Origin: an uncultured Halieaceae bacterium
Lineage (GTDB): Bacteria > Pseudomonadota > Gammaproteobacteria > Pseudomonadales > Halieaceae
Length of the DNA stretch: 64,000 nt
Direction: 5' to 3'
Assembly (NCBI GenBank): GCA_938074045.1
Contig: CALJGI010000015.1
Location: forward strand, 56,019-120,018
The position numbers were made by a program, and so were the translations under genes. Below are positions 27,391-35,263 of this stretch, one piece after another. The notes under the pieces were generated by a model that saw only the letters and a list, made by a program, of their open reading frames with translations, made no database searches and was not told the origin of the DNA. How positions within the stretch are numbered: the first letter of the stretch is position 1; each line of letters starts with the position of its first letter.

Positions 27391-29535
27391 ATGAAAACAG
27401 ATGGTAAGATTGTCATGTTGAGAATGGTTGTTGCTGCGATTATTGCTATGGCGCTTTCAGCCTGTCGTATCAGCGTCGAGGTCCCCGAGGGTGGCTACCT
27501 GGTGTCAGCGTCCGGTAATTACGACTGTATCGACCCGGATGGCGCGCCACTACCCGCCGCAGCACCGAATGGGCGGGATCGCCACCTGCACCGCCCCGGC
27601 GAGGTCAGCACCCAGCACGATGAGAATTTTCATTGTGAGATTGATGTCAGCGATACCTCATTTAATGAAACCCTCACCGCCGTGGCATACGATGGATGGC
27701 AATTCAGTCACTGGCGCTCAGCCGAGGGCAGTTTGTACGGTGGCACCTCAGCCAACCCCATTCAACTGTGGACCCTGGGTTTTGATGCTTTTCCGGTGCT
27801 GATGGATGTCCTGGCGTCCAACACGACCTACTACCTGGAGCCCATTTTCAAGCGTGTCAGCGCTGATGGCAACGATTTGGCCTGCGACGATTTCAGCGGC
27901 AGTTTCGAGCGCATCCAATCGATAGTATTTGATGGCTACAACTGCACTAATTCCGCCTGTCATGGCGGTAGCGCCAATGCCGGTGGTCTCGATCTCAGCC
28001 CGGCCGTCGCCTATGACAATTTATTCCGGGTCGATTCCACGGCCAACCTGGCGGAGCCCCGGCAGCGTGTTTATCCCGGCGAGCAGAAACTCAGTTTCCT
28101 CTATCAGAAACTGGAAGCGGGTACATTGGGAACCGCATTGCCCACCGGTGGCGGCCAGGTGATGCCCATCGGTGGCTCTGCGCTCTCCGCCGATCATCTG
28201 GAGGCCCTGCGCTTGTGGATTCGCGGCGGGGCACCAGAATTTCAGGATGTAGATAACGTTGCCACCCTGCTGGGCTGCTCTCAGCCCACCCCATCCCAGG
28301 CGAATAAGATTGAACCACCCGCAGCACCCCCGCTGGGCGAGGGCGTGCAGTTTGTCAGCGGGCCCTGGACGGTGGAAGCTGACAGTGAGAACGAGGTGTG
28401 CTACGCCACCTACTATGATCTGGAGCAGACCCCTGGACTGTTACCCGATTGGGCCAAAACGGAGTGTGAAGGCAGCATCTATGCCGACTATGATGGCACC
28501 TGTATGGCCATCAACTCGCAAATCCTCACGCAGGATCCGCAGTCACATCACAGTATTATCGATGTGTATGTGGGCACCGCGACGCCGCTGGATGAATCCT
28601 GGGGTGAATGGCAGTGCTTGAATGGACCCAGCGCCGGTGCCGCTTGCGACCCTACAAAAATCGGTGTGCCGGTGTCACAGGGCGGAGCAGACTGCGGCGG
28701 TGATTTGTACGTCTGCGGAACGCCAGCGCAAAAATCAACAGCCTGTATTGGCTGGGGTCCAAGAGACAACCGCTTCAAACAGGTGAGCATGGGCGGCAGT
28801 CAGGCACCCATATCGGTCAACAAATTGCGCGAGGGGATTTACTCGGTGCTGCCAACCAAGGGCGTGATTGCATGGAATTCGCATGCTTTCAACCTGAGTG
28901 ATCAGGAAACAACGGTAGAACAGTACAATAATTTTACCTTTGCACCCGCGGACGCCAGGGAACACCGTAATCGGGCAATTTTTGACTCGCGTTGGATTTT
29001 TACCGCCAACGTACCAGTGTTTGAACAGCGGACATACTGTTCCACCTATGTCATCCCACAGGGTGCGCGTCTCACCTCGCTCAGTTCACACGCCCACCAG
29101 CGCGGTGTGCATTGGCAGACCTGGTTGCCGCCGAATGACCCAGCCTGTCGCCCGAATACCGGCTGTGAGCCCAACGAGCGCCCGGAGGACTATGTCAGCC
29201 GCATCTACAATGACCCGTTGGAGATTGAATACGATCCACCGCTGGAATTTGATTCCGCTGACATTACGCAGCGTACATTCAAGTATTGCTCCACCTATGA
29301 CAACGGATTTAACTTTCCTGACCTGCTGAAACGCAACTCCACCTCCGTGGGTTCCACCTGTATTGGCAACGCCTATTGCGTCGGTGGTTCCACTCCGGGT
29401 CTGGCCTGCGGTAGCGATGACAGCCTGTGCGGCGATGGCGGTTCCTGTGATGCCTGCCCCGTGGTGGGTGGCGTAACTACCGAGGATGAAATGTTCATCC
29501 TGCTGGGTAACTACTACTTGCTACCGGTGAATTAA
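27391..29535 (+). CDS. Cysteine-rich lipoprotein: PSCyt1-like motif region plus possible PHM/DBH-type copper-monooxygenase-like region
   Basis: It has a lipobox ...MALSAC. Residues 185-282 (CTNSACHGG..GGLDLS....VMPIGG..LSADHLEALRLWIRGGAPE) resemble the planctomycete cytochrome c domain. Residues HH386/387, H498, H567-A-H569-QRG and TTEDEM701FILLGNYY resemble copper type II monooxygenase ligands. Confidence 0.6.
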   Translation: MKTDGKIVMLRMVVAAIIAMALSACRISVEVPEGGYLVSASGNYDCIDPDGAPLPAAAPNGRDRHLHRPGEVSTQHDENFHCEIDVSDTSFNETLTAVAYDGWQFSHWRSAEGSLYGGTSANPIQLWTLGFDAFPVLMDVLASNTTYYLEPIFKRVSADGNDLACDDFSGSFERIQSIVFDGYNCTNSACHGGSANAGGLDLSPAVAYDNLFRVDSTANLAEPRQRVYPGEQKLSFLYQKLEAGTLGTALPTGGGQVMPIGGSALSADHLEALRLWIRGGAPEFQDVDNVATLLGCSQPTPSQANKIEPPAAPPLGEGVQFVSGPWTVEADSENEVCYATYYDLEQTPGLLPDWAKTECEGSIYADYDGTCMAINSQILTQDPQSHHSIIDVYVGTATPLDESWGEWQCLNGPSAGAACDPTKIGVPVSQGGADCGGDLYVCGTPAQKSTACIGWGPRDNRFKQVSMGGSQAPISVNKLREGIYSVLPTKGVIAWNSHAFNLSDQETTVEQYNNFTFAPADAREHRNRAIFDSRWIFTANVPVFEQRTYCSTYVIPQGARLTSLSSHAHQRGVHWQTWLPPNDPACRPNTGCEPNERPEDYVSRIYNDPLEIEYDPPLEFDSADITQRTFKYCSTYDNGFNFPDLLKRNSTSVGSTCIGNAYCVGGSTPGLACGSDDSLCGDGGSCDACPVVGGVTTEDEMFILLGNYYLLPVN

Positions 29536-29603
29536 CAGACCTCCGGCCCAGGGTGTTCCATATATCGCGCGGGAGGTTTAGCTATCCTCCCTGGCATAGA
29601 GTG

Positions 29604-30449
29604 TCACGCGTCCAGGGCGACCTGCTGCTCCTGGTCGATGTCCTGTCGCCACTCACTGAGGTTGGATTCGATCGCCCAGAAACCACATATCCATAGCATC
29701 TGATCCCAGGCATAGACCCAGTGGCCGGTCCACAGCCACCAGGCGGCGTCCATAAACAAAATGGCGTAAAAAAATCGCCCGGCGTGACTGACCGTCATCA
29801 AACGCCCACCGGAGATATTTTTGTTTTGCAGCCACACCGCCAGTTCGATAGCCCAGATGACTAGCAGCCATACCGAGGCATCGATCATGTCTACCAACAC
29901 ATGTTTCCTCTCCAACGCGTAGCCATCGGTGTCGGTAACCACGGTGGGGTCGAGGTAGTAAAAGGTGGTGTCTGTAGAAATGGTTTTACAGTTGTTACTG
30001 TCGATCAATTCGTAGCGATAATTCTCGCCAAATGAGATGTCCTGATCCGTCAGCTGACACAGGGAACTGATCTCAGTGGCCGGCACAACGGCTTCCGTAT
30101 CGATCAGCGTTGTGGCACGGGCGAACACGGTGTGCGCCAGAAAGATATAGCAGACCAGGCGCATGCCATGAATCGACCATATCAGCGGTTTTGATTCAAA
30201 GGCCTCGTCCTCCAGGGCATAAGTTTCCAGTTCAAGCATGAACAGTAGACCGAACCAGGCGAACTCGTCGATGGTGGTGGCGAAGGCCTGGGTCCACTCC
30301 AAAAAAGTGCCGCCATTGCGCAGGGTGTGTGAGGCGATATAGGCCTCTTCAACAGCGTAGTAACCCCAGTTCAGCAGCAATAGCGAGTACACCGTCCACT
30401 TCAGTACCTGGCTTTTATCGGCGTTTTGCCAGCGTTCAGCGATAGTCAC
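29604..30449 (-). CDS. Hypothetical polytopic membrane protein
   Basis: The ORF is 281 aa with several hydrophobic, Trp-rich segments. I recognised no family. Confidence 0.55.
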   Translation of the reverse strand: MTIAERWQNADKSQVLKWTVYSLLLLNWGYYAVEEAYIASHTLRNGGTFLEWTQAFATTIDEFAWFGLLFMLELETYALEDEAFESKPLIWSIHGMRLVCYIFLAHTVFARATTLIDTEAVVPATEISSLCQLTDQDISFGENYRYELIDSNNCKTISTDTTFYYLDPTVVTDTDGYALERKHVLVDMIDASVWLLVIWAIELAVWLQNKNISGGRLMTVSHAGRFFYAILFMDAAWWLWTGHWVYAWDQMLWICGFWAIESNLSEWRQDIDQEQQVALDA

Positions 30450-30452
30450 TGA

Positions 30453-31811
30453 CTAGACGACACCATAGGCCAGCATGGCATCAGCGACCTTCACAAACCC
30501 CGCAATATTGGCACCACGCACGTAATCGATATGCTCCGTTCCAGCGACGCCGCCATACTCGACACAGCGATCGTGGATGCCTCCCATGATGTCCACCAGC
30601 AGCTTCTGCAGTTCTGCTTCCTTCCAGGAAATGCGCGCCGAGTTCTGGCTCATCTCCAGCCCCGAGACTGCTACCCCGCCGGCGTTGGCCGCCTTACCCG
30701 GGCCGTACAGAATCTGCGCTTCCTTGAACAGGTGTACCCCCTCCAGATTGGTGGGCATGTTGGCGCCTTCTGAAACGCCAATACACCCGTTTTTCAGTAA
30801 GGTGCGGGCGTCATCGCCATCCAGTTCGTTCTGGGTGGCGCAGGGCATGGCAAGATCACAGGGAACTCCCCAGGGGCGTTTATCGGTGTGAAACTCAGAT
30901 CCCGCGAACTCGCCTGCGTAATCGGCGATGCGCCCCCGCCTTGTGGTCTTGTGTTCTTTGACCCAATCAATTTTTTCCTGATCGATACCCGCCGGGTCGT
31001 AAATAAAGCCACCGGAATCAGACAGCGTCAGCACCTTGCCGCCCAGGTGAGTGACTTTCTCAGCGGCGTGGGTGGCCACGTTGCCGGAACCTGAAATAAC
31101 CACAGATTTGCCGTCGATACTGTCCCCGACATGTTGCAGCATGTTTTGCAGAAAGTAAGTGGCGCCATAGCCGGTGGCCTCGGTACGGATAAGACTGCCG
31201 CCGTATTCCAGACCCTTGCCAGTGAGTACGCCGGTGAACTGATTGGTGATGCGCTTGTACTGACCAAACATGTAACCGATTTCCCGGGCACCCACACCGA
31301 TATCACCCGCGGGCACGTCTATATCAGCGCCGACATGTCGGTACAACTCGGTCATAAAAGACTGGCAGAAACGCATGACTTCGTGGTCTGACTTTCCCTT
31401 CGGATTGAAGTTTGATCCGCCCTTGCCGCCGCCCATGGGCAAACCCGTCAGGCTGTTTTTGAAGGTTTGTTCAAAGGCCAGGAACTTCAGCACACTTTCC
31501 GTCACGTCACGGTGAAATCGCAGGCCGCCCTTGTAAGGGCCGATGGCGCTGTTGTTTTGTACGCGCCAGCCGCGTTGGACGCGGATATTGCCGTTATCGT
31601 CCTCCCAGCAGACGCGAAAGCTCACCACCCGATCCGGTTCGGCGATACGGCGCAGAATCTGGTATTCGTGGTACGGGAGTTTGTCCTGTATAAATTCGAA
31701 AATGTCCTCGGATACTTCCTGTACCGCCTGCACAAACTCGGGTTGGCCGGGATTACGGCGTTTGACCCCTGACATGAATTCATCCAGATTAACGTGCTCT
31801 GCTACCGACAT
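30453..31811 (-). CDS. gdhA: NADP-specific glutamate dehydrogenase
   Basis: It has the active-site motif GLPMGGGKGGSNFNPKGKS and the dinucleotide motif ISGSGNVA. ATG 31811 is preceded by AAGGAG, and that start matches the usual GdhA N-terminal length. Confidence 0.9.
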   Translation of the reverse strand: MSVAEHVNLDEFMSGVKRRNPGQPEFVQAVQEVSEDIFEFIQDKLPYHEYQILRRIAEPDRVVSFRVCWEDDNGNIRVQRGWRVQNNSAIGPYKGGLRFHRDVTESVLKFLAFEQTFKNSLTGLPMGGGKGGSNFNPKGKSDHEVMRFCQSFMTELYRHVGADIDVPAGDIGVGAREIGYMFGQYKRITNQFTGVLTGKGLEYGGSLIRTEATGYGATYFLQNMLQHVGDSIDGKSVVISGSGNVATHAAEKVTHLGGKVLTLSDSGGFIYDPAGIDQEKIDWVKEHKTTRRGRIADYAGEFAGSEFHTDKRPWGVPCDLAMPCATQNELDGDDARTLLKNGCIGVSEGANMPTNLEGVHLFKEAQILYGPGKAANAGGVAVSGLEMSQNSARISWKEAELQKLLVDIMGGIHDRCVEYGGVAGTEHIDYVRGANIAGFVKVADAMLAYGVV

Positions 31812-31926: not shown

Positions 31927-33111
31927 TTAGAGGCTGAAGTTTCCGTCATGCAGGCCTGGAAATAGCTTCTCCAGAGCGGCCCGGTCCTCGCTACTCAAGG
32001 CCTTCCAGACTTCACAAAGATCGCGCCACACCGCTACCTGAAAAGTTTTAACCACGGCACGGAAGGGGTGGCCCTGCAGCACGCCGTCATACAAGGATTC
32101 ACCGCGATCAAACGCCTCTTCATTAAAAGGGGTCAGATCCCTTTTTTGACTCAGCGAGCGGTAGGCGGCGTCATTTTGTTGCATCAGGGGAACAAAGGTC
32201 TCGCTAATAGCGGCCATAAGCGGTGCGAGATCGGAGTTCAGTGTCAGCTTCCCATCGCTACCTGCCTGCCTGCCGTCGCGAATATTACACAGCCATCGGA
32301 ACGTGAGGGGAGCCAGTTCCTCTATCAACTCGGCGGCGCGACCATCTACTAGATTCATGCTGAGTTGCCCGTAGGCCGATGCATCCGCCAGCGTGAACTG
32401 GTGCCCGAGTAAGAACGGTTGCTGTTGTAGGATGTTTTCCATGGCGGCGAGATATTGGCGCCAGGCGTTATCCAGTAGTTGGTGAGTGGGGGGAAAGCCT
32501 TCTCTGGATGGTGGCGTCAATTGAGGGCTTACTCCCAGGTCCAGCCCCGCGGGTGCCACGCTGAACAGATAGGGGCAGCGCCGCACCTGGCGGTGGGGCA
32601 GTCTTTTAGCCATGATGCGACGCACACCCGGCGGCAGGAGTTTGCGAAACTCCCGGCTGGTCATCCGCCCCATTTGATTGGTGGCCGCGGATGTCACCCA
32701 GCGATTGTGGTGCACCATGTAAAGACCGAATTCATCGAAGGCCTCATCGATCAGGTGGCAGACAAAGTCGAGCTGTGGTGAAGCGGGTAGCAATGGTGTC
32801 GGGGTTGTAGCAAGCGAGTCCAGATGCTCGGCCAACGCCGAGGAATCGTAGTAAAAACTTGAGCCGTCAAAGCTGTAATAGGGAACGGCGGGGTATTCGT
32901 CCAGCTCTGCATCCCGGCCCGTATATTTTTTGACGGAGGCCGATTTTTGCGCAGACTGCAGCCGCCGGAAGGTTGTAAATGCCTGCCTCAGCGTTGCCTG
33001 ATCAGGCCAGCGTTGCCAGGGGACATTGGCATGGTTGGCCAGCGCCTGTACCTTCAATTGAAAAGGTGAGGCGATGACCCCCCAAAATATTAGCTGCTGC
33101 GGGTCACTCAC
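31927..33111 (-). CDS. Glutathione S-transferase-like protein (long form)
   Basis: It has a thioredoxin-like N-terminus (LIFWGVIASPFQLKV...PAVPYY) and a GST C-terminal-type helix (FLLGHQFTLADASAYGQL). I chose GTG 33111, which overlaps the upstream cupin stop by 8 nt. The listed 33249 start would lie inside the cupin gene. Confidence 0.6.
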   Translation of the reverse strand: MSDPQQLIFWGVIASPFQLKVQALANHANVPWQRWPDQATLRQAFTTFRRLQSAQKSASVKKYTGRDAELDEYPAVPYYSFDGSSFYYDSSALAEHLDSLATTPTPLLPASPQLDFVCHLIDEAFDEFGLYMVHHNRWVTSAATNQMGRMTSREFRKLLPPGVRRIMAKRLPHRQVRRCPYLFSVAPAGLDLGVSPQLTPPSREGFPPTHQLLDNAWRQYLAAMENILQQQPFLLGHQFTLADASAYGQLSMNLVDGRAAELIEELAPLTFRWLCNIRDGRQAGSDGKLTLNSDLAPLMAAISETFVPLMQQNDAAYRSLSQKRDLTPFNEEAFDRGESLYDGVLQGHPFRAVVKTFQVAVWRDLCEVWKALSSEDRAALEKLFPGLHDGNFSL

Positions 33112-33631
33112 CGACGATAATAACGCCGTCGCAGTTCTCGCCGTAGAGTTCGCACAGGCCGCGGTAGGCCATGAGAATGCTGCGGGCGTCGACGATGCTG
33201 GTGACGTCACCCTTATCATCGATGTTGATATTGCTGCCAAAAATGGCAAACCACACTACCGCGTCTTCGGTGGCGTCTTGGGCGACGGTGAGGGTGTGCA
33301 GTGAATGCGCCGGTTCATAGAGGTACGATCCCGCCTTGTTGACCTTGTCGGGATACTCCTCGTAAAACCATTCGCCGGATTGAGTAACGGCGAATACCGG
33401 ACCGGTATGGTAGTGGGTGTCGACCTTGAATCCCGGACGGAAGCGATTGCGAACAATCCACAGATTCTGATTCAAATCCACCTGTAGTAATTGCAGCGTG
33501 GACCCATCGGGTAATTCGACATGGGGCAAGTCCTCGTCATGCAGCAGAATTGCTTCGCGACTGTTCTCGCGACTTACTACAGGGCCTTCGGCCATTGCCG
33601 CCAGCATCTCCAGTGCGGTCATCTCACTCAT
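33104..33631 (-). CDS. Cupin domain protein (ChrR-like cupin / 2,4'-dihydroxyacetophenone dioxygenase family)
   Basis: It has an HYHTGPVFAVTQSGEWFYEEY...YLYEPAHSLHTL metal-ligand pattern and is ~175 aa. Confidence 0.6.
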   Translation of the reverse strand: MSEMTALEMLAAMAEGPVVSRENSREAILLHDEDLPHVELPDGSTLQLLQVDLNQNLWIVRNRFRPGFKVDTHYHTGPVFAVTQSGEWFYEEYPDKVNKAGSYLYEPAHSLHTLTVAQDATEDAVVWFAIFGSNINIDDKGDVTSIVDARSILMAYRGLCELYGENCDGVIIVGE

Positions 33632-33676
33632 TCTCGTAGTCCTCGTGAAAATTGAATCATTGGTACCTGTGCCTGC

Positions 33677-33856
33677 TTATTTCTTCTTTTTTGGCGCAGT
33701 CTTCTTTTTGGCTGCCGGCGCTTTTTTTGCGGCTGGTTTTTTCTTTGGTGCAGCTTTTTTCCTGGCCACTGGCTTCTTTTTTGCGGCGGCAGATTTTGTG
33801 CGTGCTTTGGCGGTTGAACGCGGCGCTTTTTCCTTCGCTGTCCCGGCCGGCCCACC
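33677..33856 (-). repeat. Low-complexity coding repeat (AKKK/PAAKK units) encoding a histone-H1/AlgP-like tail
   Basis: The plus strand shows iterated GC(G/T)GC...TTTTTT units. These units also generate three spurious overlapping ORFs in the track. Confidence 0.8.
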
Positions 33857-35263
33857 GGTGGGGATGCCCGCGGCGACTTCCAGCTCAACCAGGGCATCTT
33901 CCATATAGTCGATCAGCCGCTGTACCTGGGGCATGGAGCGTCGGCAGGCGATGATACCGAAATCGACGTTGCGATCGTAGGTCACCAGCGTGATGTTCAG
34001 GGCGATGCCATCGGTAATGATGGACATGGGATAGGAACCCTCCATGCGCGCGCCATTCCAGTACATCTTCTGCCGAATACCTGGTACGTTGGATATGACG
34101 GTGTTAAATGGCGGCATCTTGCTCGCCAGGCCCAGTGGCATCAGCAACATGGCGGGAGACTGAATCAGCATGCTGAACAGTGTTACTTCCTCGGCACTCA
34201 TGCCGCTATAGAAGTCCTTACCGGCCTTTGTAGAGGCCTTGATAGCCTGAATACGCTTCGCCGGGTCGCTGATGTTGGTGGCGAGGTCCGCGCTGATAGA
34301 GGCCACTGCATTGGTGGAATCGACATCGCCTGCCTGCCGCAGCGATACCGGAACCATGGCTTTCAGCGAGTCATCCGGCATCACGCCGTGCCGCTGCAAA
34401 TAGGTTCTGAGCGCGCCGGCGCACATGGCGAGTACGGCGTCGTTAAATGTGCCGTCATATGCTTTGCCGATGGCGTGAATGCGCGCAAAAGGCCAGGACT
34501 GGGCGACAAAGCGACGAGCGCTACCCACCGAGGTATTGATGTGGCTGGTGGGCACCTGCATAAAGGGCAGCATCAAGGCACCACCTTCGCCGCGCCAGGC
34601 ATTGGTAAAACGCTTGAGAGCACCATATAGATTACCGCTGGTGTCATAGACAGCTTTGAGTGCCTCGGATACTGTGCGCAGATTGGAGTCACCCAGACCA
34701 TTTTCCCGCGCCGTTGGCAGGGTGGCCCGGTAGCGCTCCCAGGAGTTCATCGACATGGGGGATTCCAGCATGCGCGAGGTGGGGTCTGCCGACAACATGC
34801 TGCGACTGAGATGTACCGACCGCGCGCCATCAATGGCGGCGTGATGGGTCTTGGTGTACATGGCGAACTGACGCTTCTGTAAACCTTCGATCAGATGGGT
34901 TTCCCACAGCGGGCGGCTGCGATCCAGCAGGGTGGTGTGTAATCTGGAGGCCAGATTGAACAATTCGCGGTAGCGTCCTGGTTCGGGTAGGGCGGAGTGA
35001 CGTATGTGATATTCGATATCCAGCGCTGGATCCGGTTCCCAATAGACGTTGCCCGCCATGCCCAGTAGCCCGGTTTTGATGCGATCGCCAAAGGGCGGTA
35101 GTAACTTGTCAAAGTTGCGCAGGCCATCAGCGGTTTCCCGCAAAAACTCCTGCTCATCTGCGCCCTCGGGCAGTGTGTACAGGCTGACACCTGCCACATG
35201 CATGGGGGTTTCCCGGGTTTCTGCTATCAGAAACCCTTTGTCGACAAAATTAAGTTTTTTCAT
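33677..35263 (-). CDS. Wax ester synthase/diacylglycerol acyltransferase (WS/DGAT) with Lys/Ala/Pro-rich C-terminal tail
   Basis: It has the catalytic HHAAIDG (HHxxxDG) motif and a conserved N-terminus (LNFVDKGFLIAETRETPMHV). The last ~59 aa are ...AKEKAPRSTAKARTKSAAAKKKPVARKKAAPKKKPAAKKAPAAKKKTAPKKKK. Confidence 0.85.
   Translation of the reverse strand: MKKLNFVDKGFLIAETRETPMHVAGVSLYTLPEGADEQEFLRETADGLRNFDKLLPPFGDRIKTGLLGMAGNVYWEPDPALDIEYHIRHSALPEPGRYRELFNLASRLHTTLLDRSRPLWETHLIEGLQKRQFAMYTKTHHAAIDGARSVHLSRSMLSADPTSRMLESPMSMNSWERYRATLPTARENGLGDSNLRTVSEALKAVYDTSGNLYGALKRFTNAWRGEGGALMLPFMQVPTSHINTSVGSARRFVAQSWPFARIHAIGKAYDGTFNDAVLAMCAGALRTYLQRHGVMPDDSLKAMVPVSLRQAGDVDSTNAVASISADLATNISDPAKRIQAIKASTKAGKDFYSGMSAEEVTLFSMLIQSPAMLLMPLGLASKMPPFNTVISNVPGIRQKMYWNGARMEGSYPMSIITDGIALNITLVTYDRNVDFGIIACRRSMPQVQRLIDYMEDALVELEVAAGIPTGGPAGTAKEKAPRSTAKARTKSAAAKKKPVARKKAAPKKKPAAKKAPAAKKKTAPKKKK

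What the first reader, a model, noticed from the sequence alone, without database searches (positions are those of the whole stretch)
33677..33856. Wax-ester synthase/DGAT carrying a histone-H1/AlgP-like polycationic tail
The enzyme has the HHxxxDG active site. It ends in ~59 residues of AKKK/PAAKK repeats (…KKKPVARKKAAPKKKPAAKKAPAAKKKTAPKKKK). Similar KPAA-type tails occur in nucleoid- or granule-associated proteins such as AlgP and the phasin PhaF, where they bind DNA. On a WS/DGAT such a tail could tether nascent wax-ester/TAG bodies to the nucleoid or to anionic membranes. I do not know of a characterised example.
Basis: partly seen in the sequence, partly recalled or inferred. Interest (0 to 1): 0.6.

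Follow-up and report, generated by a model that had tools for sequence, protein, structure and literature searches.

The report
Wax-ester synthase with histone-like tail
A storage-fat-making enzyme of a marine Halieaceae bacterium really does end in a floppy, strongly positive lysine-rich tail. The same kind of tail sits on two other lipid enzymes and a granule-coat protein of this bacterial family, which suggests an undescribed way of anchoring fat droplets to the chromosome or another negatively charged structure.

Summary
Window 33677-35263 (-) encodes a 528-aa WS/DGAT with the HHAAIDG motif, both Pfam domains, and a confidently predicted fold matching 6CHJ and 7NXG. Its folded core ends at residue 466. 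A 62-residue tail follows (34% K, 27% A, 13% P, net +23) and is predicted to be disordered.

The tail is not an artefact:
- All 120 closest homologues and 26-27 of 30 named-genome homologues at 48% identity or more carry a tail of the same composition. Sequence and length vary (16-105 aa).
- About 20% of more distant WS/DGAT clusters carry one too, through at least 15 gains or losses.

In this genome only about nine proteins have such stretches. They include a second, unrelated WS/DGAT paralogue, a HAD-LPAAT acyltransferase (tail in 29 of 30 Halieaceae orthologues) and a PhaF-like phasin (30 of 30). That phasin tracks WS/DGAT, not PHA synthase, across the family.

The most likely function is a polyanion tether that attaches nascent wax-ester/TAG bodies to the nucleoid, as PhaF, PhaM, MLDS and AlgP do for other inclusions. 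Binding to anionic membrane or polyphosphate remains possible. I found no published description. The function is inferred, not shown.

The parts
33677..35263 (-). Complete WS/DGAT gene (528 codons plus TAA stop)
   Evidence: ORF list and translation. TIGR02946 scores 432 bits, above its cut-off.
33866..35263 (-). Folded catalytic core, residues 1-466
   Evidence: AlphaFold2 model with mean pLDDT 87.3 and pTM 0.84; core blocks are mostly above 90 and the last helix is 447-465. Foldseek top hits are 6CHJ and 7NXG (E 3.5e-44 and 7e-40). In the sequence search, 6CHJ (455 aa) is matched to its last residue, aligned with query residue 467.
34433..35254 (-). WS_DGAT_cat domain (PF03007), residues 4-277
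   Evidence: Pfam E 1.6e-65
34826..34846 (-). Active-site motif HHAAIDG (HHxxxDG), residues 140-146
   Evidence: Read directly from the translation. H140, H141, D145 and G146 are invariant in 23-, 38- and 94-sequence alignments.
33881..34312 (-). WS_DGAT_C domain (PF06974), residues 318-461
   Evidence: Pfam E 9.9e-33
33680..33865 (-). Polycationic K/A/P tail, residues 467-528 (net +23, predicted disordered)
   Evidence: Composition, codons and A-runs. It is not a DNA tandem repeat. pLDDT is 45-52 with no secondary structure from residue 470. Tails of the same composition occur in all 120 closest homologues and in 26-27 of 30 named-genome homologues at 48% identity or more.

Best explanation
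The gene encodes a normal wax-ester synthase/diacylglycerol acyltransferase. Its last helix is followed by a 62-residue intrinsically disordered, histone-H1-like Lys/Ala/Pro tail.

I propose that the tail is a sequence-independent polyanion-binding tether. The enzyme core sits on the nascent wax-ester/TAG body, as is established for AtfA-type enzymes. The tail binds the nucleoid. Lipid bodies are therefore nucleated, spaced and partitioned along the chromosome. PhaF and PhaM do this for PHA granules, MLDS does it for Rhodococcus lipid droplets, and AlgP does it for polyphosphate granules.

In Halieaceae the tail appears to be a shared address label of a whole set of lipid-body proteins:
- this WS/DGAT;
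- a second, unrelated WS/DGAT paralogue;
- a HAD-phosphatase/LPAAT fusion that could feed glycerolipid precursors;
- a PhaF-like phasin.

Shown here: the anatomy, the predicted disorder, conservation of composition under rapid sequence and length turnover, recurrence across the family, and co-occurrence of the tailed proteins. Inferred: binding to DNA, localisation, and the effect on lipid bodies. I put about 0.8 on the general statement 'polyanion-binding localisation module' and about 0.45 on DNA/nucleoid as the specific partner.
For: (1) The tail is real and selected for composition, not sequence. All 120 closest homologues are tailed. Across the 119 measured tails K is 32%, A 21.5%, P 10.6%, R 9.4%, D+E 1.1% and aromatics about 0. 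Length is 16-105 aa and net charge +6 to +41.

(2) It extends beyond the fold of the solved WS/DGATs and is predicted disordered.

(3) It recurs. 31 of 150 representatives of 50%-identity clusters carry a polycationic tail. On a tree of 146 cores this needs 22-24 state changes, at least 15 of them forced by well-supported branches.

(4) The two tailed paralogues in this genome lie in opposite halves of the tree. The C13 paralogue's nearest relatives among this genome's copies (C2, C37) are tail-less. This fits sub-functionalisation by localisation.

(5) Only about nine proteins in the genome carry such stretches. Three are lipid acyltransferases and one or two are phasin-like (one clear PhaF-type phasin). 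The rest are DksA, an H1-like protein, RNase R and an HTH antitoxin, which act on DNA, RNA or the transcription machinery.

(6) Tails are conserved on the HAD-LPAAT in 29 of 30 Halieaceae orthologues and in five further families of the order.

(7) The PhaF-like phasin is tailed in 30 of 30 copies. It is present in 53 of 61 family genomes, against 56 of 61 with WS/DGAT and about 10 of 61 with an intact PhaC. Phasin versus WS/DGAT gives Fisher p = 6e-4. In one genome the phasin lies next to two WS/DGAT genes.

(8) Literature precedents exist. The PAKKA tail of MLDS binds DNA non-specifically and recruits DNA to lipid droplets (PMC5504291). PhaM attaches PHB granules to the nucleoid (PMC3556143). 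The KPAA tail of AlgP is needed for polyphosphate-granule spacing (PMC9239181).

(9) The tails lack the hydrophobic and aromatic residues typical of membrane-binding polybasic motifs, and they are much longer (the comparison rests on my own knowledge).
Against: There is no experimental or direct computational evidence for DNA binding or localisation.

The tail has no exact PAKKA repeat (0 PAKKA, 1 KPAA, 2 PAAKK, 2 APKK). It has no Pfam HC2 hit at E <= 0.01.

The same tail sits on a probably membrane-embedded LPAAT. WS/DGAT acts first at the cytoplasmic membrane. So anionic phospholipid is a credible alternative partner.

The orthologue cores are near neutral (mean net -2.5), whereas tail-less relatives are slightly basic (+3.7). 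This hints at charge compensation for membrane binding, although the test on the 150 representative proteins (tailed-core mean +2.1 versus +3.7) was not significant (p = 0.25).

Published K/A/P tails also bind polyphosphate and RNA (PMC9239181; PMC12818456, seen only as an abstract).

The co-occurrence statistics are not corrected for phylogeny; the four genomes lacking both phasin and WS/DGAT belong to two genera.

Gene neighbourhood gives no functional hint.
Confidence: 0.45

Rival explanations
1. Electrostatic membrane or droplet-surface anchor. The polycationic tail binds acidic phospholipids (PG, cardiolipin) of the inner membrane leaflet or of the lipid-body monolayer. This raises the interfacial residence of a soluble, otherwise near-neutral enzyme.
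For: The tailed orthologue cores are near neutral (mean net -2.5; this protein +1). Tail-less relatives average +3.7. The same tail is found on an LPAAT-type enzyme that also works at a phospholipid interface. From established knowledge, AtfA-type enzymes start lipid-body formation at the cytoplasmic membrane.
Against: The charge difference is not significant (p = 0.25). The tails contain virtually no hydrophobic or aromatic residues and reach 105 aa and +41 in WS/DGAT orthologues and 166 aa in HAD-LPAAT orthologues. That is far more than known membrane-binding polybasic patches need. The HAD-LPAAT already has a hydrophobic segment (seen by inspection of the sequence), so a membrane anchor would be redundant there. 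The same tail type in this genome sits on DNA- and RNA-binding proteins.
Confidence: 0.22
2. Polyphosphate- or RNA-linked condensate. The tail docks the enzyme and its lipid bodies to polyphosphate granules or RNA, or drives co-condensation that clusters the tailed lipid enzymes into one metabolic assembly.
For: AlgP, with a KPAA tail, associates with polyphosphate granules and its tail is required for their spacing (PMC9239181). PhaF has been reported as an RNA-binding protein through its disordered region (PMC12818456, abstract). Several enzymes of one pathway carry the same tail.
Against: Nothing in the genome context links these genes to polyphosphate metabolism. Nothing separates this from the DNA hypothesis, because polyphosphate granules themselves sit in the nucleoid.
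Confidence: 0.13
3. Non-binding physical role. The tail acts as an entropic, charged bristle that keeps a hydrophobic enzyme soluble, or makes lipid bodies repel each other and so prevents coalescence.
For: Composition is conserved while sequence and length are free to vary. This is what a purely physical role would predict. The tail is predicted to be disordered.
Against: A bristle could equally be acidic or neutral. Yet the 119 measured orthologue tails, 29 of 30 LPAAT tails and 30 of 30 phasin tails are all cationic. In a cell full of polyanions, a segment of +20 to +40 will not stay unbound.
Confidence: 0.1
4. Artefact. The tail is produced by a frameshift or mis-assembly in low-complexity DNA and is not part of the protein.
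For: The tail DNA contains A-runs of 6-7 bases. The assembly is a 57-contig draft. Raw reads could not be checked.
Against: All 120 closest homologues from independent assemblies, including contigs of more than 4 Mb from isolates, have an in-frame tail of the same composition but different DNA and length.
Confidence: 0.01

Closest known systems
Characterised bacterial WS/DGATs: Acinetobacter baylyi AtfA/WSD1 (PDB 7NXG) and the Marinobacter aquaeolei VT8 enzyme (PDB 6CHJ)
   Same: Same family by every test: HHxxxDG motif, both Pfam domains, TIGR02946 above its cut-off, 34-39% identity, and predicted fold with TM 0.86 to the targets.
   Different: In the sequence search, 6CHJ (455 aa) is matched to its last residue, aligned with query residue 467. 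Representative characterised enzymes listed in PMC5407786 are 451-482 aa. None has the 62-aa polycationic extension.
MLDS, the major lipid-droplet protein of Rhodococcus jostii RHA1 (PMC5504291)
   Same: One polypeptide combines a lipid-droplet-associated part with a C-terminal Lys/Ala/Pro tail. In MLDS the tail binds DNA without sequence specificity and recruits DNA to droplets. This is the closest working analogue.
   Different: MLDS is a small structural protein, not an enzyme. Its tail has canonical PAKKA motifs; this tail has none exactly. MLDS is from an actinobacterium and there is no sequence homology.
PhaM-PhaC1 of Ralstonia eutropha and PhaF of Pseudomonas
   Same: A K/A/P (PAKKA/AAKP) tail attaches a carbon-storage inclusion to the nucleoid and controls granule number, size and inheritance (PMC3556143). 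A PhaF-like phasin with such a tail is present in this genome and in 53 of 61 Halieaceae.
   Different: In those systems the tail is on an adaptor or coat protein that binds the synthase or the granule. Here the synthase itself carries it. The stored polymer is neutral lipid, not PHA; an intact PhaC is absent from most Halieaceae sampled.
AlgP (AlgR3) of Pseudomonas aeruginosa
   Same: A histone-H1-like KPAA repeat tail of similar composition is required for even spacing of a storage inclusion (PMC9239181).
   Different: [quoted passage not shown] It has no enzymatic domain, its tail is 154 aa, and its repeats are much more regular.

Membership tests
WS/DGAT (wax ester synthase/acyl-CoA:diacylglycerol acyltransferase; PF03007 + PF06974, TIGR02946) | Catalytic HHxxxDG motif | tested here: met
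   HHAAIDG at residues 140-146. H140, H141, D145 and G146 are invariant in alignments A1-A3.
WS/DGAT (wax ester synthase/acyl-CoA:diacylglycerol acyltransferase; PF03007 + PF06974, TIGR02946) | Two-domain architecture scoring above curated cut-offs | tested here: met
   PF03007 scores 222 bits (cut-off 23.6). PF06974 scores 113.7 bits (cut-off 20.7). TIGR02946 scores 431.9 bits (cut-off 309.95).
WS/DGAT (wax ester synthase/acyl-CoA:diacylglycerol acyltransferase; PF03007 + PF06974, TIGR02946) | Fold of the solved WS/DGAT structures | tested here: met
   AlphaFold2 model with pLDDT 87.3. Foldseek E is 3.5e-44 to 6CHJ and 7e-40 to 7NXG, with TM 0.86 normalised to the target. NRPS condensation domains follow at E about 1e-14.
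WS/DGAT (wax ester synthase/acyl-CoA:diacylglycerol acyltransferase; PF03007 + PF06974, TIGR02946) | Wax-ester and/or TAG synthase activity | not testable with these tools
   This needs an enzyme assay. A full-length FAR-like reductase domain (PF07993, E 1.9e-44, 667-aa frame) elsewhere in the genome makes a wax-ester route plausible.
Histone-H1-like K/A/P DNA-binding tails (AlgP, PhaF C-terminus, PhaM, MLDS, HupB, Hc2) | Long low-complexity Lys/Ala/Pro segment, strongly cationic, almost no acidic or hydrophobic residues | tested here: met
   62 aa: K 34%, A 27%, P 13%, one acidic residue, net +23. The 119 measured orthologue tails have the same composition.
Histone-H1-like K/A/P DNA-binding tails (AlgP, PhaF C-terminus, PhaM, MLDS, HupB, Hc2) | Canonical repeat units (PAKKA, KPAA, AAKP, S/TPKK) | tested here: inconclusive
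   0 PAKKA, 0 S/TPKK, 1 KPAA, 2 PAAKK, 2 APKK, 5 KKK. There is no DNA tandem repeat. The motifs are near variants only.
Histone-H1-like K/A/P DNA-binding tails (AlgP, PhaF C-terminus, PhaM, MLDS, HupB, Hc2) | Profile match to an H1-like family (Pfam HC2 PF07382, NF038052/NF038053) | tested here: not met
   No HC2 hit for this protein at E <= 0.01. One orthologue (P0071) has a precomputed PF07382 hit. The tailed phasin and DksA of the same genome hit HC2 at 0.0029 and 1.8e-9. Such matches are compositional anyway.
Histone-H1-like K/A/P DNA-binding tails (AlgP, PhaF C-terminus, PhaM, MLDS, HupB, Hc2) | Intrinsic disorder | tested here: met
   pLDDT is 45-52 and there is no secondary structure from residue 470, next to a core mostly above 90.
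Histone-H1-like K/A/P DNA-binding tails (AlgP, PhaF C-terminus, PhaM, MLDS, HupB, Hc2) | Sequence-independent DNA binding | not testable with these tools
   This needs EMSA or SPR with the tail peptide.
Inclusion-to-nucleoid tethers (PhaF, PhaM, MLDS type) | An inclusion-binding module and a polycationic tail in one protein, with inclusion number, size and segregation depending on the tail | not testable with these tools
   The architecture fits. Dependence of lipid-body behaviour on the tail needs genetics and microscopy.

The most novel reading that the evidence does not exclude
Halieaceae and neighbouring marine Gammaproteobacteria may build a nucleoid-attached neutral-lipid organelle whose components all carry the same histone-H1-like address tail. 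The components would be the WS/DGAT synthases, a HAD-phosphatase/LPAAT fusion that could supply diacylglycerol on site, and a PhaF-type phasin. In this family the phasin would coat wax-ester/TAG bodies rather than PHA. The tail would then be a convergently evolved, transferable 'storage-inclusion to chromosome' tag, gained many times within the WS/DGAT family.
Probability: 0.25. Interest if true: 0.75.

Novelty: new variant of a known kind. Interest (0 to 1): 0.58.

Why it matters
How bacteria position and inherit neutral-lipid bodies is known only for Rhodococcus, through the MLDS adaptor. A synthase that carries its own H1-like tail would be the simplest possible coupling of lipid-body birth to the chromosome. 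It would extend the PhaF, PhaM, AlgP and MLDS principle to abundant marine Gammaproteobacteria, where WS/DGAT genes are reported as abundant in coastal sediments (PMC10351704).

The finding is directly testable with a truncation. It reassigns a widespread 'phasin' to lipid bodies. It offers a portable tag for localising enzymes, or for controlling droplet size, in engineered wax-ester and TAG producers.

It also warns annotators that these low-complexity tails are genuine, conserved parts of the enzymes.

Tried and rejected
- **First structure model.** The model built from 38 close orthologues was poor (pLDDT 51) and was not used. A 94-sequence alignment fixed this.
- **Gene neighbourhood.** The downstream ChrR-type cupin, the GST-like gene and the upstream SDR are not found next to the orthologues. 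Operon context gives no clue.
- **DNA tandem repeats in the tail.** None were found. Unlike some orthologues with KAKP runs, this copy is not a recent slippage product.
- **Core-charge compensation.** Tailed cores versus tail-less cores show a trend only (p = 0.25).
- **Looser genome-wide charge scan.** It was swamped by Arg-rich shadow ORFs and added nothing.
- **Names of distant tailed clusters.** The look-up gave only two organisms, a Halioglobus and a Burkholderiales MAG.
- **Literature searches.** I searched for a lysine-rich, positively charged or histone-like tail on a wax-ester synthase. Only HBHA, MLDS and unrelated papers came back. The supplementary text of the MLDS paper held in the library mentions no acyltransferase alongside its PAKKA proteins.
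- **Frameshift artefact.** Considered and rejected, because the orthologues carry the tail.

Full report
**1. What is there**

Window 33677-35263 on the minus strand is a 528-codon ORF. It matches WS_DGAT_cat at residues 4-277 (E 1.6e-65) and WS_DGAT_C at 318-461 (E 1e-32). It matches TIGR02946 over 4-464 with 432 bits against a cut-off of 310. The catalytic motif is HHAAIDG at residues 140-146.

By sequence it matches the two solved bacterial WS/DGATs, 6CHJ (E 4.7e-103) and 7NXG (E 6.4e-92). The alignment to 6CHJ runs to that chain's last residue (455), aligned with query residue 467.

An AlphaFold2 model built on 94 homologues has mean pLDDT 87.3 and pTM 0.84. The core is mostly above 90 and the last helix is 447-465. 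From residue 470 to 528 there is no secondary structure and pLDDT is 45-52. Foldseek puts 6CHJ and 7NXG first (E 3.5e-44 and 7e-40), with NRPS condensation domains far behind.

Counted from the end of the fold, the tail is 62 residues: K 34%, A 27%, P 13%, one acidic residue and net +23, next to a core of net +1. The tail DNA is not a tandem repeat. Its longest A-run is 7 bases.

**2. Is it real, and more than chance?**

A scan of all 18,413 ORFs of at least 60 aa in the 4.1-Mb assembly looked for at least 9 Lys in 30 residues of K/A/P/R/T/S/V/G. It returned ten ORFs, about nine of them real proteins.

All 120 best database homologues (63-82% identity) end in a basic K/A/P/R/T tail. They come mostly from Halioglobus, Haliea and other Halieaceae MAGs and isolates, and some lie on contigs of more than 4 Mb.

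In the 119 whose fold end could be located, tail length runs from 16 to 105 aa (median 48). Net charge runs from +6 to +41 (median +18). Pooled composition is K 32%, A 21.5%, P 10.6%, R 9.4%, T 8.7%, S 6.4%, D+E 1.1%, with essentially no aromatic residues. The tails cannot be aligned with one another. Close relatives differ by expansion or contraction of KAKP-type runs.

So selection acts on composition and charge, not on sequence. The frameshift-artefact reading fails.

**3. How far does it reach?**

I examined 80 loci from named genomes.
- At 48% identity or more, 26 of the 30 complete homologues meet a strict polycation criterion, and a 27th has a tail interrupted by masked bases.
- These come from Halioglobus, Congregibacter, Pseudohaliea rubra DSM 19751, Parahaliea, Luminiphilus and Lentisalinibacter sediminis. 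They also come from MAGs labelled Lysobacterales, Chromatiales and Alteromonadaceae.
- At 45% identity or less, only 2 of 49 have one, both from Mycobacterium MAGs. The other 47 come from Alcanivorax, Marinobacter, Hahella, Moraxellaceae, Nocardioides, Mycolicibacterium and others.

In an even sample of 61 Halieaceae genomes, an orthologue at 49% identity or more is present in 43 genomes (30 of 40 genera). Every open frame is longer than the 466-aa core.

Of 150 representatives of 50%-identity clusters (28-57% identical to the query), 31 have a polycationic tail. Some are Lys-rich and some Arg-rich.

On a maximum-likelihood tree of 146 cores, the trait needs 22-24 changes. At least 15 are forced by well-supported branches. 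Shuffled labels need about 29-30. The tail has therefore been gained and lost many times within the family.

**4. The other tailed proteins of this genome**

The genome has four WS/DGAT genes.
- The paralogue on contig 13 (610 aa) has a tail of about 135 aa rich in K, T, S and A.
- The two others end at the fold.
- The contig-13 protein is sister to the two tail-less paralogues and lies in the opposite half of the tree from the window protein. The two tails in this one genome are therefore independent.

The remaining K/A/P proteins are:
- a 536-aa fusion of a HAD-IB hydrolase domain with a 1-acylglycerol-3-phosphate acyltransferase domain (PF12710 + PF01553; TIGR01490 + TIGR00530), ending in KAKAKAKAKPKAKPK...;
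- a PhaF-like phasin (PF05597);
- a second, weakly phasin-like protein;
- DksA with an N-terminal extension;
- a 245-aa H1/AlgP-like protein;
- RNase R;
- an HTH antitoxin.

So three of about nine tailed proteins are lipid acyltransferases and one or two are phasin-like. The rest act on DNA, RNA or the transcription machinery.

**5. Are those other tails conserved?**

The HAD-LPAAT orthologue is present in 55 of 61 Halieaceae genomes. Of 30 fetched copies, 29 have K/A/P tails of 45-166 aa. Tailed orthologues also occur in five other families of the order, while the best orthologues in one family lack the tail.

The phasin is present in 53 of 61 family genomes, and 30 of 30 fetched copies are tailed with 13-84 aa. 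Class I/II PHA synthase is intact in only about 10 of the 61, whereas WS/DGAT is present in 56.
- Phasin versus WS/DGAT gives 52/1/4/4 (both present / phasin only / WS/DGAT only / neither), Fisher p = 6e-4.
- Phasin versus PhaC gives p = 0.33.
- Neither test is corrected for phylogeny. The four genomes lacking both belong to two genera.

In this genome the only PhaC-like gene is broken by a stop codon and frameshifts, and there is no class III synthase.

In another genus, the tailed phasin and its TetR/PhaD-like neighbour lie divergently next to two WS/DGAT genes. In this genome the same phasin-TetR pair lies 49 kb from the tailed WS/DGAT. The PhaF-type phasin of Halieaceae therefore tracks neutral-lipid synthesis, not PHA.

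**6. Mechanism**

Published systems give a consistent precedent.
- The C-terminal PAKKA tail of MLDS binds DNA without sequence specificity and recruits DNA to Rhodococcus lipid droplets (PMC5504291).
- PhaM attaches PHB granules to the nucleoid and sets their number, size and inheritance (PMC3556143).
- The KPAA tail of AlgP is needed for even spacing of polyphosphate granules, probably through chromosome tethering (PMC9239181).

By analogy, the tail here most likely ties the enzyme, and the nascent wax-ester/TAG body on which such enzymes sit, to the nucleoid. Because the tail is on the synthase itself, no adaptor would be needed. The identically tagged HAD-LPAAT and phasin would be brought to the same place.

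The length, the charge and the absence of hydrophobic residues fit nucleic-acid-binding tails better than membrane-binding polybasic patches. The HAD-LPAAT already has a hydrophobic segment, so a membrane anchor would be redundant there.

Against this, nothing here shows binding. The tail lacks exact PAKKA units and gives no HC2 profile hit. The near-neutral cores of the tailed orthologues hint at charge compensation for binding to anionic membrane, though not significantly. K/A/P tails are also reported to bind polyphosphate and RNA.

My estimates are:

| Reading | Probability |
|---|---|
| General polyanion-binding localisation module | about 0.8 |
| DNA/nucleoid as the partner | 0.45 |
| Acidic phospholipid | about 0.22 |
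| Polyphosphate or RNA | about 0.13 |
| Non-binding bristle | about 0.1 |
| Artefact | about 0.01 |

**7. Comparison with the known, and novelty**

The protein is a member of the WS/DGAT family by every sequence and fold test. It differs from all characterised members, which are 451-482 aa in the table of PMC5407786, by its tail.

Functionally it resembles MLDS, PhaM/PhaF and AlgP, without homology to them. Full-text searches found no description of a WS/DGAT with such a tail.

Earlier AI notes of this scan describe the same kind of tail on WS/DGATs of other genomes, and phasins linked to WS/DGAT. They agree with this report but are not independent evidence.

What this report adds:
- the count of gains and losses;
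- the two independent tails in one genome;
- the conserved tail on the HAD-LPAAT;
- the family-wide decoupling of the tailed phasin from PHA synthase.

I rate it a new variant of a known kind: a known enzyme plus a known tail type, in an undescribed, conserved and recurrent combination. Interest is moderate to high because one truncation experiment would test it.

Noticed in passing
Outside the window: own genome contig C29:33441-35051 (-); orthologues L085-L138: A 536-aa fusion of a HAD-IB hydrolase domain with an LPAAT (PlsC-type) acyltransferase ends in a KAKAKPK-type polycationic tail. The tail is present in 29 of 30 Halieaceae orthologues (45-166 aa) and in five further families of the order. 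The HAD domain might act as a phosphatidate phosphatase and supply DAG; this was not tested.
   Followed up: partly
Outside the window: own genome C15:40416-40904 (-), with a TetR/PhaD-like gene at C15:39762-40397 (-); L139-L169: A PhaF-like phasin (core NIWLAGLGAYGKA) with a K/A/P tail is present in 53 of 61 Halieaceae genomes, and 30 of 30 fetched copies are tailed. PHA synthase is intact in only about 10 of 61, while WS/DGAT is in 56 of 61. In G054 the phasin-TetR pair sits next to two WS/DGAT genes. The 'phasin' probably serves wax-ester/TAG bodies.
   Followed up: partly
Outside the window: own genome C28, about 28200-31200 (-): The only PhaC-like (PF07167) gene of the assembly is broken by a TAG stop and frameshifts, and there is no class III PhaC. 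It is either a PHA synthase pseudogene or a set of draft-assembly errors.
   Followed up: partly
Outside the window: own genome C13:99388-101220 (+): A second WS/DGAT paralogue (610 aa) has a tail of about 135 aa rich in K, T, S and A. It is sister to two tail-less paralogues (on C2 and C37) and only distantly related to the window protein.
   Followed up: yes
Outside the window: own genome C23:25170-26009 (+) and C25:150995-151777 (+): DksA carries an N-terminal K/A/P extension of about 100 aa (HC2 hit 1.8e-9). A 245-aa AlgP/H1-like Lys/Ala protein has no Pfam or NCBIfam family.
   Followed up: no
window 33498-33908 (+) and 33628-33897 (-): Shadow ORFs of 136 and 89 aa overlap the tail-coding DNA in other frames. 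One is Phe/Ala-rich and the other Arg/Lys/Gln-rich. They are by-products of the low-complexity AAR/GCN/CCN coding, not genes.
   Followed up: yes
window 31927-33631 (-): 45 nt downstream of the WS/DGAT lies a ChrR-type cupin gene (PF12973, 175 aa). After it comes a 440-aa ORF with only a weak GST C-terminal match, whose annotated TTG start overlaps the cupin gene by 146 nt. Neither gene is conserved next to WS/DGAT orthologues.
   Followed up: partly
L044 and L055 (Mycobacterium sp. MAGs): Two mycobacterial WS/DGAT homologues (about 44% identical to the query) carry polycationic tails. L044 has (APVKK)n-type repeats. Neighbouring actinobacterial homologues do not carry tails, so this looks like another independent gain.
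   Followed up: no
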